A stretch of 64,000 nt of DNA. Source: a virus. The stretch lies in UHGV virus genome UHGV-1519562; one strand, 5' to 3'. Below the pieces are notes generated by a model that had not been told where the DNA came from, searched no databases, and saw only the letters and a program-made list of their open reading frames with translations. The position numbers and the translations under genes are program-made. Shown in pieces: positions 42,459-60,787 of this stretch. Numbering within the stretch: position 1 is the first letter of the stretch; every line of letters begins with the position of its first letter.

Positions 42459-42487
42459 TTGACTTTAATTAATAAATATGTTATAAT
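42459..42487 (+). promoter_or_regulatory. promoter for tRNA-Leu(UAG) (TTGACT N17 TG-TATAAT)
   Basis: TTGACT 42459-42464, TG 42479-42480, TATAAT 42482-42487. Confidence 0.55.
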
Positions 42488-42523
42488 ATTTATATAAGAT
42501 TAACCAAAGAAATGTTGGATTGA

Positions 42524-42605
42524 TGGAATGGTAGACATAGTAGCCTTAGAAGCTACCGCGTAAGCGTAAGAGTTCAAGTCTCTTATCCAACACCATTAGA
42601 CAGAC
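42524..42605 (+). tRNA. tRNA-Leu (anticodon UAG), class II
   Basis: acceptor GTTGGAT/ATCCAAC, anticodon stem GTAGC/GCTAC, loop CTTAGAA, long variable arm, T-arm AAGAG/TTCAAGT/CTCTT, CCA. Confidence 0.75.
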
Positions 42606-42720
42606 ACAGCAATCTTTATACAAGTAACGACATGCGGGTTCGATTCCTGTCTTTACGCATCTGTAAAGTAGCCTATTGGTAAGGTATTTATTTTGTTTAA
42701 AGCTGTCTAGTAAATCTCAA
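42606..42720 (+). ncRNA. tRNA-like element with permuted (Y-RNA/YrlA-like) topology
   Basis: order: stem strand AGACAG (42609-42614), T-arm GCGGG/TTCGATT/CCTGT (42644-42660), acceptor 3' strand CTTTACG, 4-nt loop, acceptor 5' strand TGTAAAG, UA, D-arm GCCT/ATTGGTA/AGGT, closing strand CTGTCT (42713-42718). Confidence 0.4.
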
Positions 42721-42852
42721 TTTGAAAAATAAAAAAAATTATGATATAATATTTATAGAAAGTTGAGGTTGATTTAATGTTTTACTGGGATTCCTTTGAT
42801 TGTGAAATTCAGTCTGATGAAATTGGTAGTATTACTAATCAGGAGAATGAAT

Positions 42853-43157: not shown

Positions 43158-43243
43158 TAATGAAAGACACATACAGCAATTTATTTAACATTATGAAAAA
43201 ATGGCAGAAAATTTTTATATAGGTGTCTTGTTTATATATTGCA

Positions 43244-43294
43244 GGCAGGTTAAAGCCCTGTGCGTCGCTGGTTCAAATCCAGCCTGTGATACCA
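43244..43294 (+). pseudogene. 3' two-thirds of a tRNA (anticodon arm, T-arm, acceptor 3' strand, CCA) without a cognate 5' part
   Basis: anticodon stem GCAGG/CCTGT, T-arm GCTGG/TTCAAAT/CCAGC, CTGTGAT-A-CCA; no D-arm or complementary acceptor strand within 60 nt upstream. Confidence 0.4.
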
Positions 43295-43295
43295 T

Positions 43296-43368: not shown

Positions 43369-43490
43369 GAGACATAATCAACCACCTCCACGCGGTATGT
43401 CTTGGGTAAAGCGAACGGTTGAATGATTTTGGGTACATTTGGATAATTTAGTAGCCAAAAAAACTCCATAATATAATGGAGGGATGTATA

Positions 43491-43952
43491 ATGAGTTATA
43501 TTTATAGAATTATTAATAATATAAACGATAAGGTTTATATTGGAAAAACTGCTTTTGATATTTCAAAACGATTCAAAGAGCATTGTAATGATGCTTTTAA
43601 GAAAACAGAAGAAAAAAGACCATTATATGCGACAATGCGTAAATATGGGATAGAGCATTTTACAATAGAACAAATTGAAGAGTGCTCTGACGCTGCGGCC
43701 GCAGACAGAGAAGCCTATTGGATTAGTATGTATTCTGCTTATGAAAAAGGATATAATGCGACTCTTGGTGGCGATGGTAAATTTTTATATGACCACAAAG
43801 CAATTGCTTTGCGACTTCAAGAACATCCATATTCTCAAGATGTAGCAAAGAAGTTTGGATGTTGTGTTGATACAGTAAGAAATATTGCTAATCAATATGG
43901 TATTTCATTATTAGTCAATAATGGCCATAAAAAAAACTATTTCTGCTTATAG
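43491..43952 (+). CDS. GIY-YIG homing endonuclease (catalytic domain plus first DNA-binding module)
   Basis: YIYRIINNINDKVYIGKT...RFKEH...YN.TLGG GIY-YIG signature; ATG 43491 after GGAGGG. Confidence 0.8.
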   Translation: MSYIYRIINNINDKVYIGKTAFDISKRFKEHCNDAFKKTEEKRPLYATMRKYGIEHFTIEQIEECSDAAAADREAYWISMYSAYEKGYNATLGGDGKFLYDHKAIALRLQEHPYSQDVAKKFGCCVDTVRNIANQYGISLLVNNGHKKNYFCL

Positions 43953-44124: not shown

Positions 44125-44157
44125 AAATATAGACTCATACAGCAAAAATTCTTTAAT

Positions 44158-44230
44158 TCTAAAATAGTCAAAAGGTTAAGACATCACTCTTGAAAAAGTG
44201 AAAATATGGGTTCGATTCCCATTTCTAGGT
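44158..44230 (+). tRNA. tRNA-like with 8-nt anticodon loop CTTGAAAA
   Basis: acceptor TCTAAAA/TTCTAGG (one A-C mismatch), D-arm GTC/AAAAGGTTAA/GAC, anticodon stem TCACT/AGTGA, T-arm ATGGG/TTCGATT/CCCAT; flanked by TAGACTC (44121) / GAGTCTA (44237). Confidence 0.4.
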
Positions 44231-44446
44231 TTAAAAGAGTCTAGTTAAAAATTAAATATAGAAAGGAGAGTTGCTTTATGGATTTGGATGATATGATTTT
44301 TTCTGATGAAGTAATTATTATTAGTGATAGATAATTATTTCTAATTTATATGGAAATGTACTCAATGTTGGCAAAGAGGACGATTTGCTAAATCGTTAGG
44401 TCTATGAGAATAGGCGAGTGGGGTCGGCACCCACCGTTTCCGCCAA

Positions 44447-44517: not shown

Positions 44518-44760
44518 ACCATTTAGACACATACAGCAATTTTATAATACTGATATTATAATTTGTGGCTCGCTGTGGCCCTATTAACAGCTCCATTTAA
44601 TGAAAAAGTATGTCAATGATTTATATTATCTTTTGCGAAAATTTCTTTAATATAATGAGACTTACAAGAAATTTTTTGTGTCTAGTTTTTCTTATTTTAT
44701 CCTTTCTTTCTTCTTTATAAGATGCTTTCAGCAATAATTATTACAAATATATTTTATTAG

Positions 44761-44856
44761 GTTTATTAAAATAGTATATATTATAGCAAATATATTTCTA
44801 TAAAGTTTATTAAAATACTATATAGTAAATATATTTCTATAAGGTTTATTAATAGC
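44761..44856. repeat. AT-rich tandem repeat (about 2.5 copies of an about 40-bp unit) upstream of tRNA-Gln
   Basis: GTTTATTAAAATA(G/C)TATATA..AG.AAATATATTTCTATAA repeated from 44761 and 44805, partial copy from 44844. Confidence 0.6.
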
Positions 44857-44866
44857 ATCTTGATAT

Positions 44867-49835: not shown

Positions 49836-51080
49836 ATGAGTTATAATTATGATGAAACTTTTAAATATCCTATTAATGCGTGTTTGAATTTAACAGATAA
49901 TTGTAATCTACAATGCAAATATTGTTTCGTACATCAAAAGCCGCATTATATGGATTTAAAAATGGCTAAAAATGCGATAGATTTTTTAGCTAAAAATTTA
50001 GTAAAATATAAAGAGCTTACTGGAAAAGAAAATCAAAAGAATGAAGTAACATTTTTTGGTGGTGAACCAACTCTTTTGTGGGAACAAATTATTGTCCCTA
50101 TTGTTGAATATACCAAAGAGAAATATCCTAATACCTTTCATTTTGATATGACCACAAATGGGACTCTTCTAAATGAAGAAAGAGTTAAATTTTGTTATGA
50201 TAATGGTATTAAACTTCTTCTTTCTATTGATGGAATAAAAGAAGTACAGGATTATAATCGGCCTTGTCGAGATACAAATTTAAGTAGTTTTGATTTAGTT
50301 GGGAAGAATATTCCTATTATTCTTAAATATTTTCCTAATACTACTTTTCGCTCTACTCTTTACCAGCCAACAATAGATAAAATGTTTGAATCATTTTTGT
50401 TCGCAGAAAAGTGTGGTTTTAGACAAATTTTTATGTGTCCAAATGCTAGAGAAGAATGGTCAGAAGAAAATATTAAAATTTTAAGAGAAGAAATTGGGAA
50501 AATTATTACTTATACGACTATGAATTACATTGAAGGGAAAATTCCCATTCTTTATTCTAATTTAGATAGTGCTTTTGATGATATTATTGATATAGACCTT
50601 CAAACTTATACTAAAAATTTTTCTGATATATCCCCTTCTCGCGGAGTTCGCAGATGTGGTTTAGGAACAGGTTCTATTTCTATCGCTTATGATGGTAAAA
50701 TTTATGGATGTCAAGAGCAAGATTCAAGAGATGAAAATGATTATTTTTATATTGGGGATATTTTTGATGGTATCAATATAGAAAAACATAAGAAAATGCT
50801 AACTGATTATAATGAAGCAATAACTATAATTAGTTCTAAAAAAGAATTATGTAGTAATTGTAAGCTACGACAAGCTTGTATTCATAAAGTTTGTCCTTCT
50901 GTTTCGCATGATATGTTTAATAATTTTTTCATTAGACCATCTATTGATTGTATTTACAATCAAATTCTTCTTGAAGGTGGAATTTTAATGATGAAAATTC
51001 TTGTCGAACAAGAGAAAAATCAATTTTTTAAAGAATATTTAGATTATAAATTAGAAGGTGGTGAATCTATTGGGTTGTGA
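49836..51080 (+). CDS. radical SAM enzyme with SPASM-type C-terminal domain
   Basis: CNLQCKYC (CxxxCxxC) cluster near the N-terminus, TFFGGEPTL and TTNGTLL core motifs, C-terminal CSNCKLRQACIHKVC plus additional Cys pairs. Confidence 0.8.
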   Translation: MSYNYDETFKYPINACLNLTDNCNLQCKYCFVHQKPHYMDLKMAKNAIDFLAKNLVKYKELTGKENQKNEVTFFGGEPTLLWEQIIVPIVEYTKEKYPNTFHFDMTTNGTLLNEERVKFCYDNGIKLLLSIDGIKEVQDYNRPCRDTNLSSFDLVGKNIPIILKYFPNTTFRSTLYQPTIDKMFESFLFAEKCGFRQIFMCPNAREEWSEENIKILREEIGKIITYTTMNYIEGKIPILYSNLDSAFDDIIDIDLQTYTKNFSDISPSRGVRRCGLGTGSISIAYDGKIYGCQEQDSRDENDYFYIGDIFDGINIEKHKKMLTDYNEAITIISSKKELCSNCKLRQACIHKVCPSVSHDMFNNFFIRPSIDCIYNQILLEGGILMMKILVEQEKNQFFKEYLDYKLEGGESIGL

Positions 51081-52054: not shown

Positions 52055-52087
52055 AAATTTAAAAAAATATGATATAATATTTAAGGA

Positions 52088-52152
52088 AAGACTTATACAG
52101 CAAATAAAGCTTAAAAGCACTTGACTGGTAATCAAGAAGAAAAATGAGTCTT
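52088..52152 (+). repeat. conserved spacer hairpin (AGACNNATACAGCAA family)
   Basis: AAGACTT ATACAGCAA ... AGTCTT; related copies at 42607, 43166, 44119, 44519, 52806, 53030. Confidence 0.5.
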
Positions 52153-52166
52153 GCTTAAATATTCAT

Positions 52167-52394: not shown

Positions 52395-52579
52395 AGCAGA
52401 ATTATAATAGATAACAAAAGGAAATAGCTGATGTGAAAGGCATCTTGTCTTGCTGACATGACAATAAACTTTGAACGGACGTATAATGCGTATCGTGCCT
52501 GCGGGTGTAGAGTCAGAAAAGTAGGGGAATAATCGAGGAGCAGCTATAGGTGAGGCCCCACCTCCACCTTCCTTAATAT

Positions 52580-52803: not shown

Positions 52804-52805
52804 TA

Positions 52806-52858
52806 AAGATACTCACAGCAATTTATTTTTTATAATGGGTATAAAAAAATAAAGTATC
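52806..52858 (+). repeat. conserved spacer hairpin (AGACNNATACAGCAA family)
   Basis: AAGATACT CACAGCAATTTATTTTTTATAATGGG... AGTATCTT; contains a TATAAT box that may serve the downstream tRNA-Thr. Confidence 0.5.
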
Positions 52859-52866
52859 TTGTATTT

Positions 52867-53020: not shown

Positions 53021-53395
53021 TTAGTCTTATCATACAGACGTAAAATAAATGAGTACCCCAGATAATGCTGAACTGGGTATCCGGGTATCGGGAGAATTAG
53101 TCTGGTAACTGTTGAAGCGACGATACTGCGTGACCAGGCATAAGGGCGACCTAAGTCGTTAGCTATGGGTAAACAGGTTGATAGCCGCATAGTAAAATGT
53201 TTCCTTGCGTCATTAAAATGCAAAGCGTTATAGGAGAGATGGCGGAGCATTACTCATCTCCACTCCTTCTACTACGAGAAGTAGAAAATCAAGGCTTCTG
53301 AGAAATGCTAATGAGAATGGTCAACCTCTGATTAAAAAAGGACTAAAGCTAGCTTGGGTTTTAGGTTATCCTCCTTACGAGGGAAAACCTTATTT
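53021..53395 (+). other. 375-nt non-coding, hairpin-rich region between tRNA-Lys and tRNA-Leu(CAA) (candidate structured RNA)
   Basis: no ORF longer than about 20 codons on the plus strand; GC-rich stems (CCCCAGATAATGCTGAACTGGG, GAGATGGCGGAGCATTACTCATCTC) and a GGTTATCCTCCTTA element; begins with the spacer motif variant AGTCTTATCATACAGACG. Confidence 0.35.
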
Positions 53396-53534: not shown

Positions 53535-55058
53535 ATGGAAAATAAGATGCTTAATATTTTGAAGGAAAAGAATACTCATTCTATCACTGAGAATAGCGGT
53601 TTGACTTATAATTCTACGATGAATGGAATTATGGATTTGTTTGCTCTTGGTGGCGCTTATCGAAATCGCTCAGATGATGATTGTATTTTTCTTTTTAAAA
53701 AGGCTTTTGAGGAAGATATTTCTTATGCCTTGAAGTGTCTCTTTTATTTGCGAGATGTACGTGGTGGACAGGGAGAACGCAGATTTTTTAAGGTTGTAAC
53801 TTCTTGGTTGGCAGTTAATCATATCGAGGAAATGCGTAGAAATCTGAAGTATATTCCTGAGTATGGTCGCTGGGATGATTTGTATGCTTTTGTTGATACT
53901 CCGCTTGAGGCAGATGCTTTTAAGACTATGTATCATCAGCTTGCTCTTGATGTTCAGTGTAAAACTCCTTCTCTTTTGGCTAAGTGGTTGAAGTCTGAAA
54001 ATACTTCTTCTGCGGAATCTCGTATGCTTGGAACTAAAACCAGAATGGCCTTTAATATGTCTCCTAAGCAGTATCGCAAAACTCTCTCTATTCTTCGTGA
54101 AAGAATTAGAGTTTTGGAAAGATTGATGAGTGAAAATCGTTGGGATGAAATTGAATTTGATAAGATTCCTTCTAAGGCAGGTCTAAAGTATCGCAATGCT
54201 TTCGCAAAGCACGATATTGAAAGAGAAAAGTCTAATAAGGTAACTTATGAAGAGTTTGTAAAGGATTCTAATACTAAGGTCAATGCTGATACTCTGAATC
54301 CCGCAGATGTAGTTCATGCTGTTATGTCTAAATTTCCTTATTATAGAGGAAATTTTAATGGAACCGATGTAGAGAGAGCTGCACTCAATAAGTATTGGGA
54401 TAATCTAAAGGATTATTTTAATAATGCTGTTTTTGACGGTGTTGCTGTCGTTGATACTTCTGGTTCTATGTGTGGTTTTTATGGTAGTGAGAAAACTATT
54501 GCACCTATTGATGTAGCTATTTCTCTTGGTATGTATTGTGCTGAGAAGTGTAATCCCAATTCTCCCTGGTATGGACATTATATTACTTTTTCTCGAACTG
54601 CAAGATTGGTGCCTGTTGAAGGTATTGATTTTGTTGATAAGGTGCGTCGAATTTATCAAAAGAATCTTTGTGAGAATACCGACATTAAAAGTATTTTTGA
54701 TTTGCTATTGAGTAATGCTATTAAATATAATATTCCTAATGAAGAAATGCCTAAAAACATTGTAATCATTAGTGATATGGAATTTGATTATTGCGCTGGT
54801 TATTATAATAGTGATGAATATAGATCTGAAATGGAAAAGATTATGCAGGTTTGGAACTCTCATGGTTACACTACTCCGCATTTGATTTTCTGGAATGTTG
54901 ACGCTCGAAATGATAATATTCCCATGAAGATGAAAGATGGTATTACTTTTATTTCTGGCTACTCTGCGGTAACTTATGAAATGTTGATGACTGGTAAAAC
55001 TGGTTTTGATTTGGTTTTGGAAAAGTTGAATAGCAAGAGATATGAAGTAATCAAGTAA
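53535..55058 (+). CDS. vWA (MIDAS) domain protein, DUF2828-like; possible Ro60/Rsr-like RNA-binding protein
   Basis: 507 aa; MIDAS-like VAVVDTSGSM in the C-terminal half after a roughly 300-aa mainly helical N-terminal region (architecture of TROVE plus vWA proteins); family assignment is from memory. Confidence 0.5.
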   Translation: MENKMLNILKEKNTHSITENSGLTYNSTMNGIMDLFALGGAYRNRSDDDCIFLFKKAFEEDISYALKCLFYLRDVRGGQGERRFFKVVTSWLAVNHIEEMRRNLKYIPEYGRWDDLYAFVDTPLEADAFKTMYHQLALDVQCKTPSLLAKWLKSENTSSAESRMLGTKTRMAFNMSPKQYRKTLSILRERIRVLERLMSENRWDEIEFDKIPSKAGLKYRNAFAKHDIEREKSNKVTYEEFVKDSNTKVNADTLNPADVVHAVMSKFPYYRGNFNGTDVERAALNKYWDNLKDYFNNAVFDGVAVVDTSGSMCGFYGSEKTIAPIDVAISLGMYCAEKCNPNSPWYGHYITFSRTARLVPVEGIDFVDKVRRIYQKNLCENTDIKSIFDLLLSNAIKYNIPNEEMPKNIVIISDMEFDYCAGYYNSDEYRSEMEKIMQVWNSHGYTTPHLIFWNVDARNDNIPMKMKDGITFISGYSAVTYEMLMTGKTGFDLVLEKLNSKRYEVIK

Positions 55059-56598: not shown

Positions 56599-57495
56599 AT
56601 GAATAATTATCAAAATTTATATAATATTATTAAAACTATTTATATCCAAAAGCAAGAAGAAAAATCTACCAATTATCATTCTTATATCGAAATTCAAACA
56701 AGAGTAATGGAGCATTACCAAGAAGCTTTAAAAATTTTTCCTAAAGAAAATATTCTTGGTATTTTTTATCAAGGCGCCGCGAATTATGGTCTTGATACTG
56801 TAAATTCTGATGTTGATACTAAATGTCTTATTATTCCTACTATTGAAGATTTGGCTTTTAATAAAAAACCAGTAAGTTATACTCATGTTTTAAATAATAA
56901 TGAACACATTGATTTTAAAGATGTGCGGCTTTATATGAATGAGTTCCGCAAACAGAATATTAATTTTTTAGAAATTTTATACACTGATTATTGTTATGTA
57001 AATCCAAAATATCAATCTTTTTGGAATAAATTAATTTCTAAAAGAGATGAAATTGCTCATTATGATGAATTTAGAGCTTTAAATAGTATGCTTGGTATAA
57101 TGCAAAATGAGATTAATCGCATGTTTAAACCAACAGAGAGTCGAAAAGAAGTTGTAGAAAAATTTGGCTATGACCCAAAATGTTTTAGTCATTTAAATAG
57201 ACTTAGATTATTTTATAGTTGTTACTTGAATGATTCTTATTCTATTTGTTTAAAGTGTTATGATAGTTTTTGGAGAGAAAGATTAATCTTTTATAAAAAT
57301 GGATATGAAGATTTAAGTTTTGTAAAAATTTTTGTTGAAGATCAGCAAGAATGGGTAAAAAACCAGTATGAACGATTAAGTAATGAAAGAAAAAATTATT
57401 CTATCAATATAGAAATTTCTAATTACATGGATGAAGTATTATTAAATATTATTGAAAATTATTTGTGTTCATATTTTCAACCTACTGCTTTTTAA
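56599..57495 (+). CDS. nucleotidyltransferase (pol-beta superfamily NTase fold)
   Basis: GIFYQGAANYGLDTVNSDVDTK fits the hG[GS]x(9-13)Dh[DE]h NTase signature. Confidence 0.6.
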   Translation: MNNYQNLYNIIKTIYIQKQEEKSTNYHSYIEIQTRVMEHYQEALKIFPKENILGIFYQGAANYGLDTVNSDVDTKCLIIPTIEDLAFNKKPVSYTHVLNNNEHIDFKDVRLYMNEFRKQNINFLEILYTDYCYVNPKYQSFWNKLISKRDEIAHYDEFRALNSMLGIMQNEINRMFKPTESRKEVVEKFGYDPKCFSHLNRLRLFYSCYLNDSYSICLKCYDSFWRERLIFYKNGYEDLSFVKIFVEDQQEWVKNQYERLSNERKNYSINIEISNYMDEVLLNIIENYLCSYFQPTAF

Positions 57496-57507: not shown

Positions 57508-58254
57508 GTGAAACAGTATTTTATCACTGGGGATACGCACGGTAAAAATTATCAACGTATTTGTCAAATGATTGAACAATATTCTTGCTCTCCTAAAAAT
57601 TCTTCTCTTATTATTCTTGGAGACGCAGGATTTAATTTTTGGTTAGATAAAAAAGAGCAAAAGTGGAAGAAAAGAGTAAATGATTTAGGATATTCGATTT
57701 ATTGTGTGCGGGGAAACCATGAAGAGCATCCTAAAAATTTACCTAATATTCAAGAAATTTGGGATGCAGAAATTCAAGGTTGGATTTATATTCAACCAGA
57801 TTTTCCTAACCTTAAATATTTGATTGACGGAAATACTTACTACTTTAATAGTCATTCTGCTATTGTTCTTGGTGGTGCTTATTCGGTTGATAAACATTAT
57901 AGATTAATGCAGGCTACTTTGAATCGTACCGATGATTGGACTGGTTGGTTTCCTGATGAACAATTAACACAGCAAGAGATGTTAGATATTAACAATAAAG
58001 TGATTAATCATCATTATGATTTAGTTCTATCTCATACTTGTCCTTTTGATTGGCGTCCTACTGCTTTATTTCTTCCTGGAATTGATCAATCTACTATTGA
58101 TAATACTATGGAAATTTGGATGAATGATTTAAAAGATAAGTTTTCTTGGAATAATTGGTTCTGGGGACACTTTCACGCAAATACAGATTACTATGATGGT
58201 AGATATATGTTATTTGAAAATATTTATAATTTAGAGGATTTAATTAATGATTGA
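57508..58254 (+). CDS. calcineurin-like metallophosphoesterase
   Basis: GDTHGK, GDAGFN, GNHEEH, WGHFH metal-binding motifs. Confidence 0.7.
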   Translation: MKQYFITGDTHGKNYQRICQMIEQYSCSPKNSSLIILGDAGFNFWLDKKEQKWKKRVNDLGYSIYCVRGNHEEHPKNLPNIQEIWDAEIQGWIYIQPDFPNLKYLIDGNTYYFNSHSAIVLGGAYSVDKHYRLMQATLNRTDDWTGWFPDEQLTQQEMLDINNKVINHHYDLVLSHTCPFDWRPTALFLPGIDQSTIDNTMEIWMNDLKDKFSWNNWFWGHFHANTDYYDGRYMLFENIYNLEDLIND

Positions 58255-59509: not shown

Positions 59510-60787
59510 TTGATATTTATGGCATACTATGGTTTAGTAACTAAAATTGAGAATGTAAGAAAAGACCCTAATTCTGATAGACTCTATTTAGCTGACTGTT
59601 TTAGAGAAGGAGTTATTGTAGGCCCTGATATAAAGGAAGGTGAGTTAGTTCTTTATCTTCCTACTGATGGAGCTATTGAGCGTTGGTTTGGTGATGAGTT
59701 TAAGCTTTTCCGCAAGAATTTAGATGGCACCGCACAAGGTGGTTATTTGGAAAATAATGCTCATATTAGAGCAATTAAGCTGAGAGGTAATGAATCTTCT
59801 GGTATTGTTATTTCTTATTCTGCTATTGTTGAGCATTTTGGTGAGCAAAATTGGAAAGACGGCGATCAAGTAACTGAAATTAATAATAAACTGTTTTGTT
59901 ATAAATATATTCCTAGACCTTCGGCTACTCCTCGCACTACTCCTAAGACTTCTTATAAAGGTCGTAAAGCAGCTGGAATTAAGTATCCTGATTTTGCTAT
60001 GCACATTGATACTGCTCAATTAGCTTACAATCTTGGAATCTTTAGACCTGGAGATAAAATTAATCTAACCCTTAAAATGCATGGAACTAGCCAGCGTAGT
60101 GCATATACTTGGGCAGAATATCCTATGTCTTGGTTTAGAAAACTATTTCATATGAAGCCTAAGAGAAAGTTACAGTATGTTTTAGGTACTCGTAGAACTG
60201 TTGTTACTACTGATGGGGCAGGTTATTATGGTAATGACAAATTTAGATTTAGTCATCATGAAGCTTTAAAACCTTATCTTGATGAAGGTATGGAGGTTTT
60301 TTATGAAGTAGTTGGTTGGTATGGAGCAAAAGAAAATGAAACTATTATGCCAATTGTAGATAATAGTAAAATTAATGACAAGAAATTTATGAAAAAGTTT
60401 GGTAAGTATACTACTTTTTCTTATGGTTGTACTCCTGGTCATTCTGCGATGTGGATTTATAGAATTACTTCTCACAATGGAGAGTATGAATATTCTCCAG
60501 AGGAAATTACTACTTGGTGTAATGAATATGGTTTTAATCGTGTTCCTATCATTGAGGATTTTGAATTTACTACTGTTGATGACTTGCTCGCTAAAATTGA
60601 CAAATATTTTGAAGATATTGTTGATCCAGTTGGTTTAACTCATGTTAAAGAAGGTGTAGTGGTTAGAATCGCTAATAGATGTACTTTTACTGCATTAAAA
60701 CAAAAAACCTGGGAGTTTAAAGTCCTTGAAGGTCTAGTTAAAGATACTGAAACCCAGCCCGATATGGAAGAAGCACAGGAGATTTAA
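59510..60787 (+). CDS. ATP-dependent RNA ligase (Rnl2-like nucleotidyltransferase motifs)
   Basis: motif I KMHGTS (compare T4 Rnl2 KIHGTN), motif IV HVKEGVVVR, motif V LKQKTWEFK. Confidence 0.65.
   Translation: MIFMAYYGLVTKIENVRKDPNSDRLYLADCFREGVIVGPDIKEGELVLYLPTDGAIERWFGDEFKLFRKNLDGTAQGGYLENNAHIRAIKLRGNESSGIVISYSAIVEHFGEQNWKDGDQVTEINNKLFCYKYIPRPSATPRTTPKTSYKGRKAAGIKYPDFAMHIDTAQLAYNLGIFRPGDKINLTLKMHGTSQRSAYTWAEYPMSWFRKLFHMKPKRKLQYVLGTRRTVVTTDGAGYYGNDKFRFSHHEALKPYLDEGMEVFYEVVGWYGAKENETIMPIVDNSKINDKKFMKKFGKYTTFSYGCTPGHSAMWIYRITSHNGEYEYSPEEITTWCNEYGFNRVPIIEDFEFTTVDDLLAKIDKYFEDIVDPVGLTHVKEGVVVRIANRCTFTALKQKTWEFKVLEGLVKDTETQPDMEEAQEI

What the first reader, a model, noticed from the sequence alone, without database searches (positions are those of the whole stretch)
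42606..42720. tRNA-like element with permuted topology resembling bacterial Y RNA (YrlA) modules
Reading 5' to 3': a stem strand AGACAG, a T-arm (GCGGG/TTCGATT/CCTGT), an acceptor 3' strand CTTTACG joined by a 4-nt loop to the matching 5' strand TGTAAAG, then UA and a D-arm (GCCT/ATTGGTA/AGGT), a weak A-U stem, and the closing strand CTGTCT. An acceptor-like helix capped by a loop with T- and D-arms, and the anticodon position replaced by a helix formed from the element's ends, is the topology I recall for tRNA-mimicking Y RNAs that bind Ro60/Rsr. A vWA/MIDAS protein with possible Ro60-like architecture is encoded at 53535-55058. It could also be a scrambled tRNA remnant.
Basis: inference. Interest (0 to 1): 0.7.

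Follow-up and report, generated by a model that had tools for sequence, protein, structure and literature searches.

The report
Phage Y-RNA-like permuted tRNA mimic
The flagged sequence is a real, conserved small RNA gene: a tRNA look-alike with its parts in rotated order, mounted on a short helix carrying an invariant CAGCAA motif; it belongs to an apparently undescribed RNA family that travels with a Ro60-like (DUF2828) protein gene in phages of many bacterial phyla, much as Y RNAs travel with Ro60.

The parts
42459..42487 (+). Sigma-70-type promoter (TTGACT-17-TATAAT, TG-extended) driving tRNA-Leu(UAG) plus the element
   Evidence: 11 of 12 consensus matches
42514..42595 (+). tRNA-Leu(UAG); its 3' end lies 1 nt before the element, so tRNA 3' processing would create the element's 5' end (inferred)
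42596..42711 (+). The whole element: CAGCAA-handle RNA carrying a circularly permuted tRNA-like domain
   Evidence: R1 76.4 bits; leave-one-out R2 66.5 bits, E 5e-13; Rfam YrlA 24.9 bits, full length
42597..42603 (+). Closing helix, 5' strand UAGACAG (pairs with 42703-42709)
   Evidence: all 7 pairs covary in A4
42607..42612 (+). Invariant CAGCAA motif, unpaired, just 3' of the closing helix; proposed protein-binding signature
   Evidence: C, G, C and A invariant in A1 and A4; present in modules of all positive lineages
42613..42633 (+). Variable-arm position ('hairpin X'); a clear 5-8 bp hairpin in relatives, degenerate here (3 bp CUU/AAG)
42634..42650 (+). T-arm GCGGG/UUCGAUU/CCUGU with a canonical T-loop
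42651..42668 (+). Acceptor-like 7-bp helix (3' strand first) capped by the loop CAUC; no encoded CCA in this copy
   Evidence: all 7 pairs covary
42669..42685 (+). U8-A9 and D-arm GCCU/AUUGGUA/AGGU (A14, G18, G19 and A21 present)
42687..42701 (+). Weak 4-bp A-U hairpin with 7-nt loop UUUUGUU at the position where 12 of 57 relatives have a true anticodon-like arm
42703..42711 (+). Closing helix 3' strand CUGUCUA plus the conserved trailing GU
   Evidence: G invariant after the stem
42722..42750 (+). Next promoter (TTGAAA-17-TATAAT, TG-extended); marks the end of the tRNA-Leu + element unit
43163..43231 (+). Short CAGCAA-handle module (no tRNA-like domain), starting 6 nt after tRNA-Glu
44129..44245 (+). 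CAGCAA handle enclosing a normal-order tRNA-like RNA with an 8-nt anticodon loop (ARAGORN tRNA-???, 'tgaa')
44523..44685 (+). Long CAGCAA-handle module (closing stem UAGACACA/UGUGUCUA), starting 2 nt after tRNA-Pro
44719..44862 (+). CAGCAA-handle module with an A/U-rich repeated body, ending 5 nt before tRNA-Gln
52087..52154 (+). Short CAGCAA-handle module starting at the predicted transcription start of the second tRNA cluster
52805..52862 (+). Short CAGCAA-handle module that fills the tRNA-Gly/tRNA-Thr spacer
53535..55058 (+). DUF2828/DUF7788 protein: helical-repeat ring plus vWA domain with intact MIDAS; Ro60-like fold; proposed protein partner
56599..57495 (+). Nucleotidyltransferase (weak RlaP-like match), part of the RNA-repair neighbourhood
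57508..58254 (+). Metallophosphoesterase, part of the RNA-repair neighbourhood
59510..60787 (+). RNA ligase (phrog_968, E 2e-47), part of the RNA-repair neighbourhood

Best explanation
The element is a phage non-coding RNA built like a bacterial Y RNA. Its two ends pair into a 7-9 bp helix. Next to that helix, on the 5' strand, sits an unpaired invariant CAGCAA. I call this helix plus motif the handle. The rest of the RNA is a circularly permuted tRNA mimic, opened between the anticodon-stem and variable-arm positions and closed at the acceptor end by a loop. Proposed mechanism: the RNA is transcribed with tRNA-Leu(UAG) from the promoter at 42459-42487 and freed by the tRNA-processing machinery. 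The Ro60-like DUF2828 protein (53535-55058) binds the handle, as Ro60 binds the CGAA-bulged helix of Y RNAs. The tRNA-shaped cargo is thereby presented to a tRNA-recognising host factor, either to tether it (as YrlA tethers PNPase) or to act as a decoy for it. Shown here: the structure, its conservation, the modular handle, the protein's fold, and the genomic coupling of RNA and protein genes. Inferred: transcription and processing, protein binding, and the tether or decoy function.
Against: There is no expression, end-mapping or binding data. In the window the element lies 10.8 kb from the protein gene, with unrelated genes between. The Ro60 link is structural only (TM 0.35-0.44; no sequence-profile hit) and rests on a model of moderate confidence (pLDDT 76). 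CAGCAA differs from the known Ro-binding signature, so binding cannot be carried over from Ro60. Two of 12 sampled lineages were negative or ambiguous within the DNA examined. The window copy is a somewhat degenerate member (weak variable-arm and anticodon-like hairpins, no CCA). Most loci were collected through the protein gene, which biases co-occurrence; the reverse test is limited by short flanks.
Confidence: 0.68

Rival explanations
1. The handle modules are cis-acting spacer elements of polycistronic tRNA transcripts. Their end-to-end helices would guide or protect processing (for example RNase III-type cuts or exonuclease stops), and they would have no specific link to the DUF2828 protein. 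The two would co-occur only because both belong to a phage 'tRNA module'.
For: In the window the modules fill inter-tRNA spacers almost exactly, starting 1-6 nt after one tRNA and ending 5-13 nt before the next. One handle brackets a whole tRNA like a leader-trailer processing stem. 34 of 35 true-module loci carry tRNAs.
Against: SEP9, Lolly9 and CP30A have 2-3 modules directly abutting the DUF2828 gene with no tRNA array there. An invariant hexamer across hosts from five bacterial groups is not expected for host RNase III or RNase E sites. The T4 and T5 tRNA arrays lack the handle. Elaborate tRNA-mimic cargo is unnecessary for a spacer.
Confidence: 0.15
2. It is a genuine circularly permuted or split tRNA gene. 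After RNase P cleavage and 3' trimming, two pieces held together by the acceptor and closing helices would form an aminoacylatable tRNA used in translation or recoding.
For: 7-bp acceptor stem; canonical T- and D-loops; 18 of 57 relatives encode NCCA right after the acceptor 3' strand and 12 of 57 have a proper anticodon-like arm with U33 and R37; an RNA ligase is encoded nearby.
Against: 45 of 57 copies, including in practice the window's, lack a credible anticodon arm. NCCA and the anticodon arm almost never occur in the same copy (1 of 12). The ends form a conserved helix with a sequence motif, not a bulge-helix-bulge splice site. Many handles carry no tRNA-like cargo at all.
Confidence: 0.06
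3. It is a scrambled tRNA remnant or pseudogene created by rearrangement within the tRNA cluster and has no function.
For: It lies in a tRNA cluster next to a GIY-YIG homing endonuclease gene. The single-sequence fold is not unusually stable. The window copy has degenerate sub-hairpins.
Against: The same permuted order, with compensatory changes in 22 of 23 pairs, is found in phages of different bacterial phyla. The descriptor gives 0 reverse-strand hits. The close orthologue's substitutions all preserve pairing.
Confidence: 0.02
4. It is a DNA-level element, such as a recombination, replication or endonuclease site formed by inverted repeats, rather than an RNA.
For: The closing helix is an inverted repeat in DNA, and homing endonuclease genes are common nearby.
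Against: All hits are on one strand. Helices tolerate G-U, which would be A-C on the other strand. T- and D-loop tertiary nucleotides are conserved. The spacing between the two repeat arms varies from about 50 to 160 nt while pairing is kept.
Confidence: 0.02

Closest known systems
YrlA-type bacterial Y RNAs with Ro60/Rsr (Rfam RF02553; Chen et al. 2014, PMC4201824)
   Same: The 5' and 3' ends pair into a helix. A conserved unpaired motif lies on the 5' strand next to it. The effector domain is a tRNA mimic with T-arm, D-arm and a loop-capped acceptor-like stem in the same permuted order. Several related RNAs occur per locus (YrlA plus YrlB). The gene is linked to a ring-plus-vWA protein. [quoted passage not shown]
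   Different: It scores 24.9 bits against a gathering score of 69 (34-48 bits for relatives). The motif is CAGCAA, not GNCGAAN0-1G. The partner protein is Pfam DUF2828/DUF7788, not TROVE, with no sequence-level similarity to Ro60. A variable-arm hairpin is present, and in some copies a separate anticodon-like arm, so the handle sits at the variable-region position rather than replacing the anticodon stem. The genes are embedded in tRNA arrays.
Thermus phage phiLo Ro60 with Yrl1/Yrl2 (PMC12135203; PDB 9KOP, 9L5Y)
   Same: A phage-encoded Ro60-type ring protein with two or more small stem-bulge-stem RNAs encoded beside it. It is the best structural match to the window's protein.
   Different: phiLo Ro60 is a canonical TROVE protein and its RNAs carry the CGAA motif. 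No permuted tRNA domain is reported for them in the passages I read.
Bas63 gp130 (Felixounavirus; PhageMaP preprint 10.1101/2024.10.10.617714)
   Same: It appears to belong to the same protein family as Felixounavirus DUF2828 proteins such as that of phage humlepung. It was noted as Ro60-like, lies directly upstream of the tRNA genes and counters the Ppl defence. The authors speculated that Y RNAs hide among the tRNA genes.
   Different: No RNA partner was identified there. Here a specific candidate family is defined, for example humlepung L084 11362-11490. I did not examine Bas63 itself.
Circularly permuted tRNA genes of Cyanidioschyzon merolae, and two-piece tmRNA from permuted ssrA genes (own knowledge)
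   Same: The 3' half of the tRNA fold is encoded upstream of the 5' half. In permuted tmRNA the tRNA-like domain is assembled from two processed pieces.
   Different: Those genes yield a functional tRNA (through a circular intermediate and bulge-helix-bulge splicing) or a functional tmRNA. Here there is no bulge-helix-bulge motif, usually no anticodon arm, and a conserved protein-type handle at the ends.
Stable RNAs of unknown function in phage tRNA clusters (T4 rnaC/rnaD; T5 RNA1, RNA2, RNA3 'tRNA-like stable RNA')
   Same: Small non-tRNA RNAs encoded between phage tRNA genes and released by tRNA processing. Some are annotated as tRNA-like.
   Different: Model R1 finds no handle in the T4 or T5 tRNA regions, only tandem-tRNA artefacts.

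Membership tests
YrlA (Rfam RF02553) | Score at or above the curated gathering threshold (69 bits) | tested here: not met
   24.9 bits for the window element; 34-48 bits for relatives in PBC2, TJE1 and Lolly9
YrlA (Rfam RF02553) | tRNA-like domain: T-arm, then a loop-capped acceptor-like stem, then a D-arm, enclosed by a helix formed from the RNA's ends | tested here: met
   Full-length alignment to the model; four helices supported by covariation
YrlA (Rfam RF02553) | Ro60-binding signature GNCGAAN0-1G on the 5' strand (PMC4201824) | tested here: not met
   The equivalent position carries an invariant CAGCAA
YrlA (Rfam RF02553) | Encoded near a TROVE-domain Ro60 orthologue | tested here: inconclusive
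   The partner candidate has a Ro60-like fold but is Pfam DUF2828/DUF7788 with no TROVE match. It is 10.8 kb away in the window and adjacent in 10 of 12 other lineages
YrlA (Rfam RF02553) | Bound by Ro60/Rsr in vivo; modified by TruB and DusA; cleaved by RNase P | not testable with these tools
   Needs immunoprecipitation, modification mapping and M1 RNA assays
Canonical tRNA | Cloverleaf in the standard 5'-to-3' order with an anticodon loop, detected by ARAGORN or Rfam RF00005 | tested here: not met
   No call at 42596-42711
Permuted tRNA gene (C. merolae type) | 3' half upstream of the 5' half | tested here: met
   The order is T-arm, acceptor 3' strand, acceptor 5' strand, D-arm
Permuted tRNA gene (C. 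merolae type) | Termini form a bulge-helix-bulge motif and rejoin into a complete anticodon arm or other tRNA region, giving a decoding tRNA | tested here: not met
   The termini form a plain covarying helix next to CAGCAA. 45 of 57 copies have no anticodon-like arm, and the window copy has only a 4-bp A-U hairpin with loop UUUUGUU
Ro60/TROVE protein family (for 53535-55058) | Helical-repeat ring followed by a vWA domain with MIDAS (fold) | tested here: met
Ro60/TROVE protein family (for 53535-55058) | Sequence match to Pfam TROVE or to solved Ro60 sequences | tested here: not met
   Pfam gives DUF2828 plus DUF7788 only; neither phmmer nor the profile search of PDB sequences finds Ro60

The most novel reading that the evidence does not exclude
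The CAGCAA handle is a general docking tag by which a Ro60-like ring protein, found in hundreds of cultured phages, displays interchangeable tRNA parts: elbow plus acceptor, isolated anticodon stem-loops, or whole tRNAs, some with an encoded CCA end. These would act as decoys or tethers that neutralise host tRNA-targeting defences or RNases. On this reading phage tRNA arrays hide a second, non-decoding class of tRNA-shaped counter-defence RNAs.
Probability: 0.25. Interest if true: 0.9.

Novelty: new variant of a known kind. Interest (0 to 1): 0.78.

Why it matters
Ro60-Y RNA particles are conserved from bacteria to humans, yet their function remains poorly understood. This analysis points to a second, sequence-unrelated branch of the system. 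A DUF2828 Ro60-like protein is encoded in at least 705 GenBank phage records, including Felix-O1-like, Listeria P100-like, staphylococcal, enterococcal and mycobacterial phages. It is paired with a modular RNA family that no Rfam model captures at threshold. This gives a concrete candidate for the Y RNAs that the PhageMaP authors could only guess at for the anti-defence protein Bas63 gp130. It may also assign a role to a DUF that is reported from plants as well. Finally, it shows that intergenic 'spacers' in phage tRNA arrays can be genes in their own right. The binding hypothesis is directly testable with model phages and hosts that are already in use.

Tried and rejected
- Single-sequence folding is not informative (MFE z -1.25).
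- blastn against GenBank phages found only a 78-nt tRNA match, so homologues had to be reached through the protein gene.
- Sequence searches of the protein and of its profile against PDB sequences found no Ro60; only fold comparison did.
- My first descriptor pre-selects for pairing, so I added a motif-only test and a leave-one-out model.
- A simple regular-expression census of 'CAGCAA plus 7-bp stem' has high background: 86 reverse-strand hits, 35-51 in shuffles, and hits in T4/T5 coding DNA. I used it only with controls.
- The 15-mer scan of IMG/VR returned more chance hits than true ones (45 against 35); the chance hits served as the control.
- I considered that the handle might be an HDV-like ribozyme, because a candidate HDV-like ribozyme nearby has a similar P1 (GAGACAU/AUGUCUU). 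I rejected this: the modules end right after the closing strand and lack P2, P4 and J4/2, and Rfam ribozyme models do not hit them.
- I considered a CAGCAA:CUGCUAA loop pairing; only 4 bp are possible and most modules lack that loop.
- The T4 and T5 stable RNAs are not members.
- The supplementary tables of Chen et al. 2014 and the 2020 Annual Review (PMC10870794) were not held. I could not check whether any DUF2828 phage was in their lists.
- The 375-nt gap at 53021-53395 showed no fold signal.

Full report
OBSERVATION. The order is:
- a 5' strand AGACAG (42598-42603);
- a T-arm GCGGG/UUCGAUU/CCUGU (42634-42650);
- an acceptor-like helix written 3' strand first (CUUUACG 42651-42657, loop CAUC, UGUAAAG 42662-42668);
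- UA, then a D-arm GCCU/AUUGGUA/AGGU (42671-42685);
- a weak A-U hairpin (42687-42701);
- the closing strand CUGUCU (42703-42708).
The only error is the start coordinate. The 5' closing strand lies 8-10 nt upstream of 42606, so the element spans 42596-42711. ARAGORN and the Rfam tRNA model and 15 tRNAs in the window but nothing here. The element starts 1 nt after tRNA-Leu(UAG). It is bracketed by two near-consensus, TG-extended sigma-70-type promoters at 42459-42487 and 42722-42750. Its thermodynamic stability alone is unremarkable (z = -1.25).

IS IT MORE THAN CHANCE? The Rfam YrlA model aligns over its whole length (1-114) at 24.9 bits. The E-value is 0.002 in a 221-nt search and 0.13 in a 14-kb search, and the gathering score is 69. 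No close DNA relative exists among GenBank phages, so I fetched 80 IMG/VR loci around homologues of the protein at 53535-55058.
- A strict descriptor for the permuted topology gave 45 hits in 1.46 Mb. All were on the strand of the protein gene. There were none on the reverse strand and 0-2 in shuffles, and about 35 did not overlap any ARAGORN tRNA.
- All of these share a 5' consensus AAGACNCAUACAGCAA, a small hairpin, the T-arm, the capped acceptor, the D-arm and a 3' strand complementary to the first seven bases.
- On a structure-blind MAFFT alignment of 24 copies, RNAalifold recovered four helices (23 pairs), 20 of them with compensatory double changes.
- Pair counts were 97.1% paired against 70.4% in shuffles (0 of 500 reached the observed value) and 30-42% when the partner is slid. 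Double-change cells numbered 148 against 44.
- Because the descriptor pre-selects for pairing, I repeated the test anchoring on sequence motifs only. 41% of sites where CAGCAA precedes a T-loop have all three helices, against 2% of other T-loops.
- I also built a leave-one-out covariance model from 28 other copies with no window sequence. It scores 42596-42711 at 66.5 bits, E 5e-13, full length. On that alignment 22 of 23 pairs covary.
- The orthologue in a 97%-identical relative differs at 8 of 116 positions and none breaks a pair.

THE FAMILY IS MODULAR. Model R1 found 190 hits in the 80 loci, all on the gene strand. In the window it also found shorter elements that keep only the ends. Together with the census and direct reading, the window holds at least seven modules:
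- the permuted tRNA mimic (42596-42711);
- three short rods (43163-43231, 52087-52154, 52805-52862);
- two longer ones (44523-44685, 44719-44862);
- one whose handle brackets a normal-order tRNA-like RNA with an 8-nt anticodon loop (44129-44245).
They fill inter-tRNA spacers almost exactly. One starts at the predicted transcription start of the second tRNA cluster, so tRNA processing would release them (inference). The shared grammar is: a closing stem of free, covarying sequence; 2-3 nt; an invariant CAGCAA left unpaired; the body; the complementary strand; then (U/A)G(U/A).

THE CARGO IS MADE OF tRNA PARTS.
- Among 57 unique permuted copies, the hairpin before the T-arm sits where a class-II variable arm would.
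- Twelve copies carry, after the D-arm, a 5-bp/7-nt anticodon-like arm. Its loops are CUGAUAA (8 copies), CUUAAAA and CUGUUAA, and U33 and R37 are present in 11 of 12.
- Eighteen copies encode NCCA directly after the acceptor 3' strand.
- Anticodon-arm-like hairpins are five-fold enriched in module bodies (72 of 244, against a mean of 13 in shuffles). One example is a CUGCUAA loop on covarying stems in Mycobacterium, Campylobacter, Vibrio and Klebsiella phages.
- The window's copy is a somewhat degenerate member. Its variable-arm and anticodon-like hairpins are weak and its cap loop CAUC has no CCA. U8, A14, G18, G19, A21 and the T-loop are all intact.

THE PROTEIN.
- The 507-aa product of 53535-55058 matches Pfam DUF2828 plus DUF7788 and phrog_850 'RNA-binding protein' (E 6e-111). 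It has no TROVE match and no sequence hit to solved structures, alone or as a profile.
- An AlphaFold2 model (pLDDT 76, pTM 0.66) shows an N-terminal helical repeat followed by an alpha/beta domain.
- The top 11 Foldseek PDB hits are Ro60/Rsr/TROVE structures aligned over the full length (E 2e-6 to 5e-3, TM 0.35-0.44).
- The MIDAS residues are invariant.
- Downstream lie a nucleotidyltransferase, a metallophosphoesterase and an RNA ligase (phrog_968, E 2e-47). The same set recurs beside the homologue in a Rhizobium phage.

RNA-PROTEIN COUPLING. tblastn finds the protein in 705 GenBank phage records, and some mycobacteriophage copies are annotated 'Ro-like RNA binding protein'. I sampled 12 lineages.
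- Handles, usually 2-4 with one or two of them tRNA-like, lie within about 0.5 kb of the gene on the same strand in ten: Bacillus PBC2, Enterococcus TJE1, Mycobacterium Lolly9 (59% GC, closing stem fully compensated to GGACCCC/GGGGUCC), Escherichia humlepung, Staphylococcus SEP9, Vibrio MS02, Listeria P100, Rhizobium RHph_I1_18, Campylobacter CP30A and Klebsiella phi1_175008.
- SEP9, Lolly9 and CP30A have no tRNA array at that spot. This separates the handle from tRNA arrays and ties it to the protein gene.
- Vibrio K571 was ambiguous, and Yersinia fHe-Yen9-04 was negative within 3 kb.
- In the reverse direction I scanned IMG/VR for AGACNCATACAGCAA. It returned 35 loci with a true module, of which 34 had tRNAs and 13 had DUF2828 within the few kb held. 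At least five more lie on contigs already known to encode it. It also returned 45 chance matches, with 0 DUF2828 and 3 with tRNAs.
- Some partner proteins are only 31-37% identical to the window's while the RNA 15-mer is exact.
- The T4 and T5 tRNA regions, which carry classical stable RNAs of unknown function, gave only tandem-tRNA artefacts.

MECHANISM (inferred). The arrangement parallels Ro60-Y RNA particles. In those, a helix formed by the RNA's ends, with a conserved unpaired motif on the 5' strand, is the protein-binding module, and the remainder is an effector domain that in YrlA mimics tRNA (PMC4201824). I therefore propose three steps. First, the DUF2828 ring binds the CAGCAA handle. 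Second, the RNA is excised from the tRNA precursor by the tRNA-processing machinery. Third, the tRNA-shaped cargo engages a tRNA-recognising factor. That factor could be tethered or inhibited, as reported for PNPase with phiLo Ro60-Yrl complexes (PMC12135203). Alternatively the cargo could be a decoy for tRNA-targeting nucleases. The decoy idea fits the neighbouring RNA-repair genes and the report that the Felixounavirus homologue Bas63 gp130 counters the Ppl defence (10.1101/2024.10.10.617714). The 7-bp acceptor stem makes RNase P cleavage before U42662 plausible, as shown for M. smegmatis YrlA. None of these steps has been observed for this RNA.

COMPARISON AND NOVELTY. The element works like a YrlA-type Y RNA but fails two defining features of that family: the Rfam threshold and the GNCGAA signature. 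Its partner is not a sequence-recognisable TROVE protein. It is not a C. merolae-type permuted tRNA gene, because it has no bulge-helix-bulge ends and usually no anticodon arm. Full-text searches found no description of DUF2828-associated RNAs, of the CAGCAA motif or of permuted tRNA mimics in phages. The nearest statement is the PhageMaP authors' speculation that Y RNAs hide among Bas63's tRNA genes. The library is incomplete, so prior description elsewhere cannot be excluded. I rate it a new variant of a known kind.

VERDICT. The finding extends to a widespread, modular RNA family coupled to a Ro60-like protein. The structured RNA family is essentially certain. The protein partnership is likely (about 0.7). 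The biological role is open.

Noticed in passing
window 43369-43422 (+): Directly after tRNA-Met lies a candidate minimal HDV-like ('theta'-type) self-cleaving ribozyme. It aligns to the full length of Rfam HDV-F-prausnitzii (19.7 bits, gathering 44, E 0.048 in a 96-nt search). By eye it has P1 GAGACAU/AUGUCUU, P2 CAACC/GGUUG and GCGAAC in J4/2. Its P1 resembles the handle's closing stem.
   Followed up: partly
window 44158-44230 (+), inside the module 44129-44245: A tRNA-like gene with an 8-nt anticodon loop (ARAGORN 'tRNA-???', anticodon tgaa; Rfam tRNA 51.4 bits) and no encoded CCA, bracketed by a CAGCAA handle. It could be a frameshift-type tRNA or another displayed tRNA mimic.
   Followed up: partly
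window 43232-43295 (+): A tRNA 3' portion (anticodon-arm-like hairpin, T-arm GCUGG/UUCAAAU/CCAGC, acceptor 3' strand, ACCA) with no matching acceptor 5' strand upstream, lying between a short module and tRNA-Met. Rfam tRNA scores only 21.2 bits at 43201-43291.
   Followed up: no
window 52396-52579 and 53021-53395 (+): Two comparatively G+C-rich non-coding gaps inside the second tRNA cluster with no Rfam match at E up to 10. The 375-nt gap has no significant fold signal (z -0.9). Their nature is unknown.
   Followed up: partly
window 43476-43952 (+): A GIY-YIG homing endonuclease gene sits inside the first tRNA cluster. Homing endonuclease genes also flank the DUF2828 gene or tRNA regions in PBC2, SEP9, Vibrio MS02, the Rhizobium phage, T4 and T5.
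   Followed up: no
L083 9672-9733, L207 7798-7864, L208 7499-7560, L213 4853-4972: Modules from Mycobacterium, Campylobacter, Vibrio and Klebsiella phages share a hairpin with covarying 4-5 bp stems and an invariant 7-nt loop CUGCUAA (anticodon-loop shape, GCU). Its UGCU could also pair with AGCA of the CAGCAA motif.
   Followed up: partly
L214 (Vibrio phage K571) 2942-3065: A good 5' handle half (UUAGACAUUAUACAGCAAAC) lies 35 nt upstream of the annotated DUF2828 start codon, and the only matching 3' strand falls inside the coding region. This could be chance, a mis-set start codon, or an autoregulatory site on the protein's own mRNA.
   Followed up: no
L085 (Enterococcus phage TJE1) 2793-3389 and 8306-8656: The tRNA region upstream of this phage's DUF2828 gene also encodes a ROOL RNA (261 bits) and a tmRNA (142 bits), neither annotated in the record.
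   Followed up: no
L081 (Bacillus phage PBC2) and L082 (Listeria phage P100), tRNA features: In the fetched loci the records' tRNA features are listed on the strand opposite to the one where Rfam finds the tRNAs. Rfam places them on the same strand as the DUF2828 gene. This looks like a strand annotation error in the records or a display quirk.
   Followed up: no
window 49836-51080 (+): A radical SAM protein (Pfam E 4e-15; phrog_1802) is encoded between the two tRNA clusters. It could be an RNA- or nucleotide-modifying enzyme.
   Followed up: no
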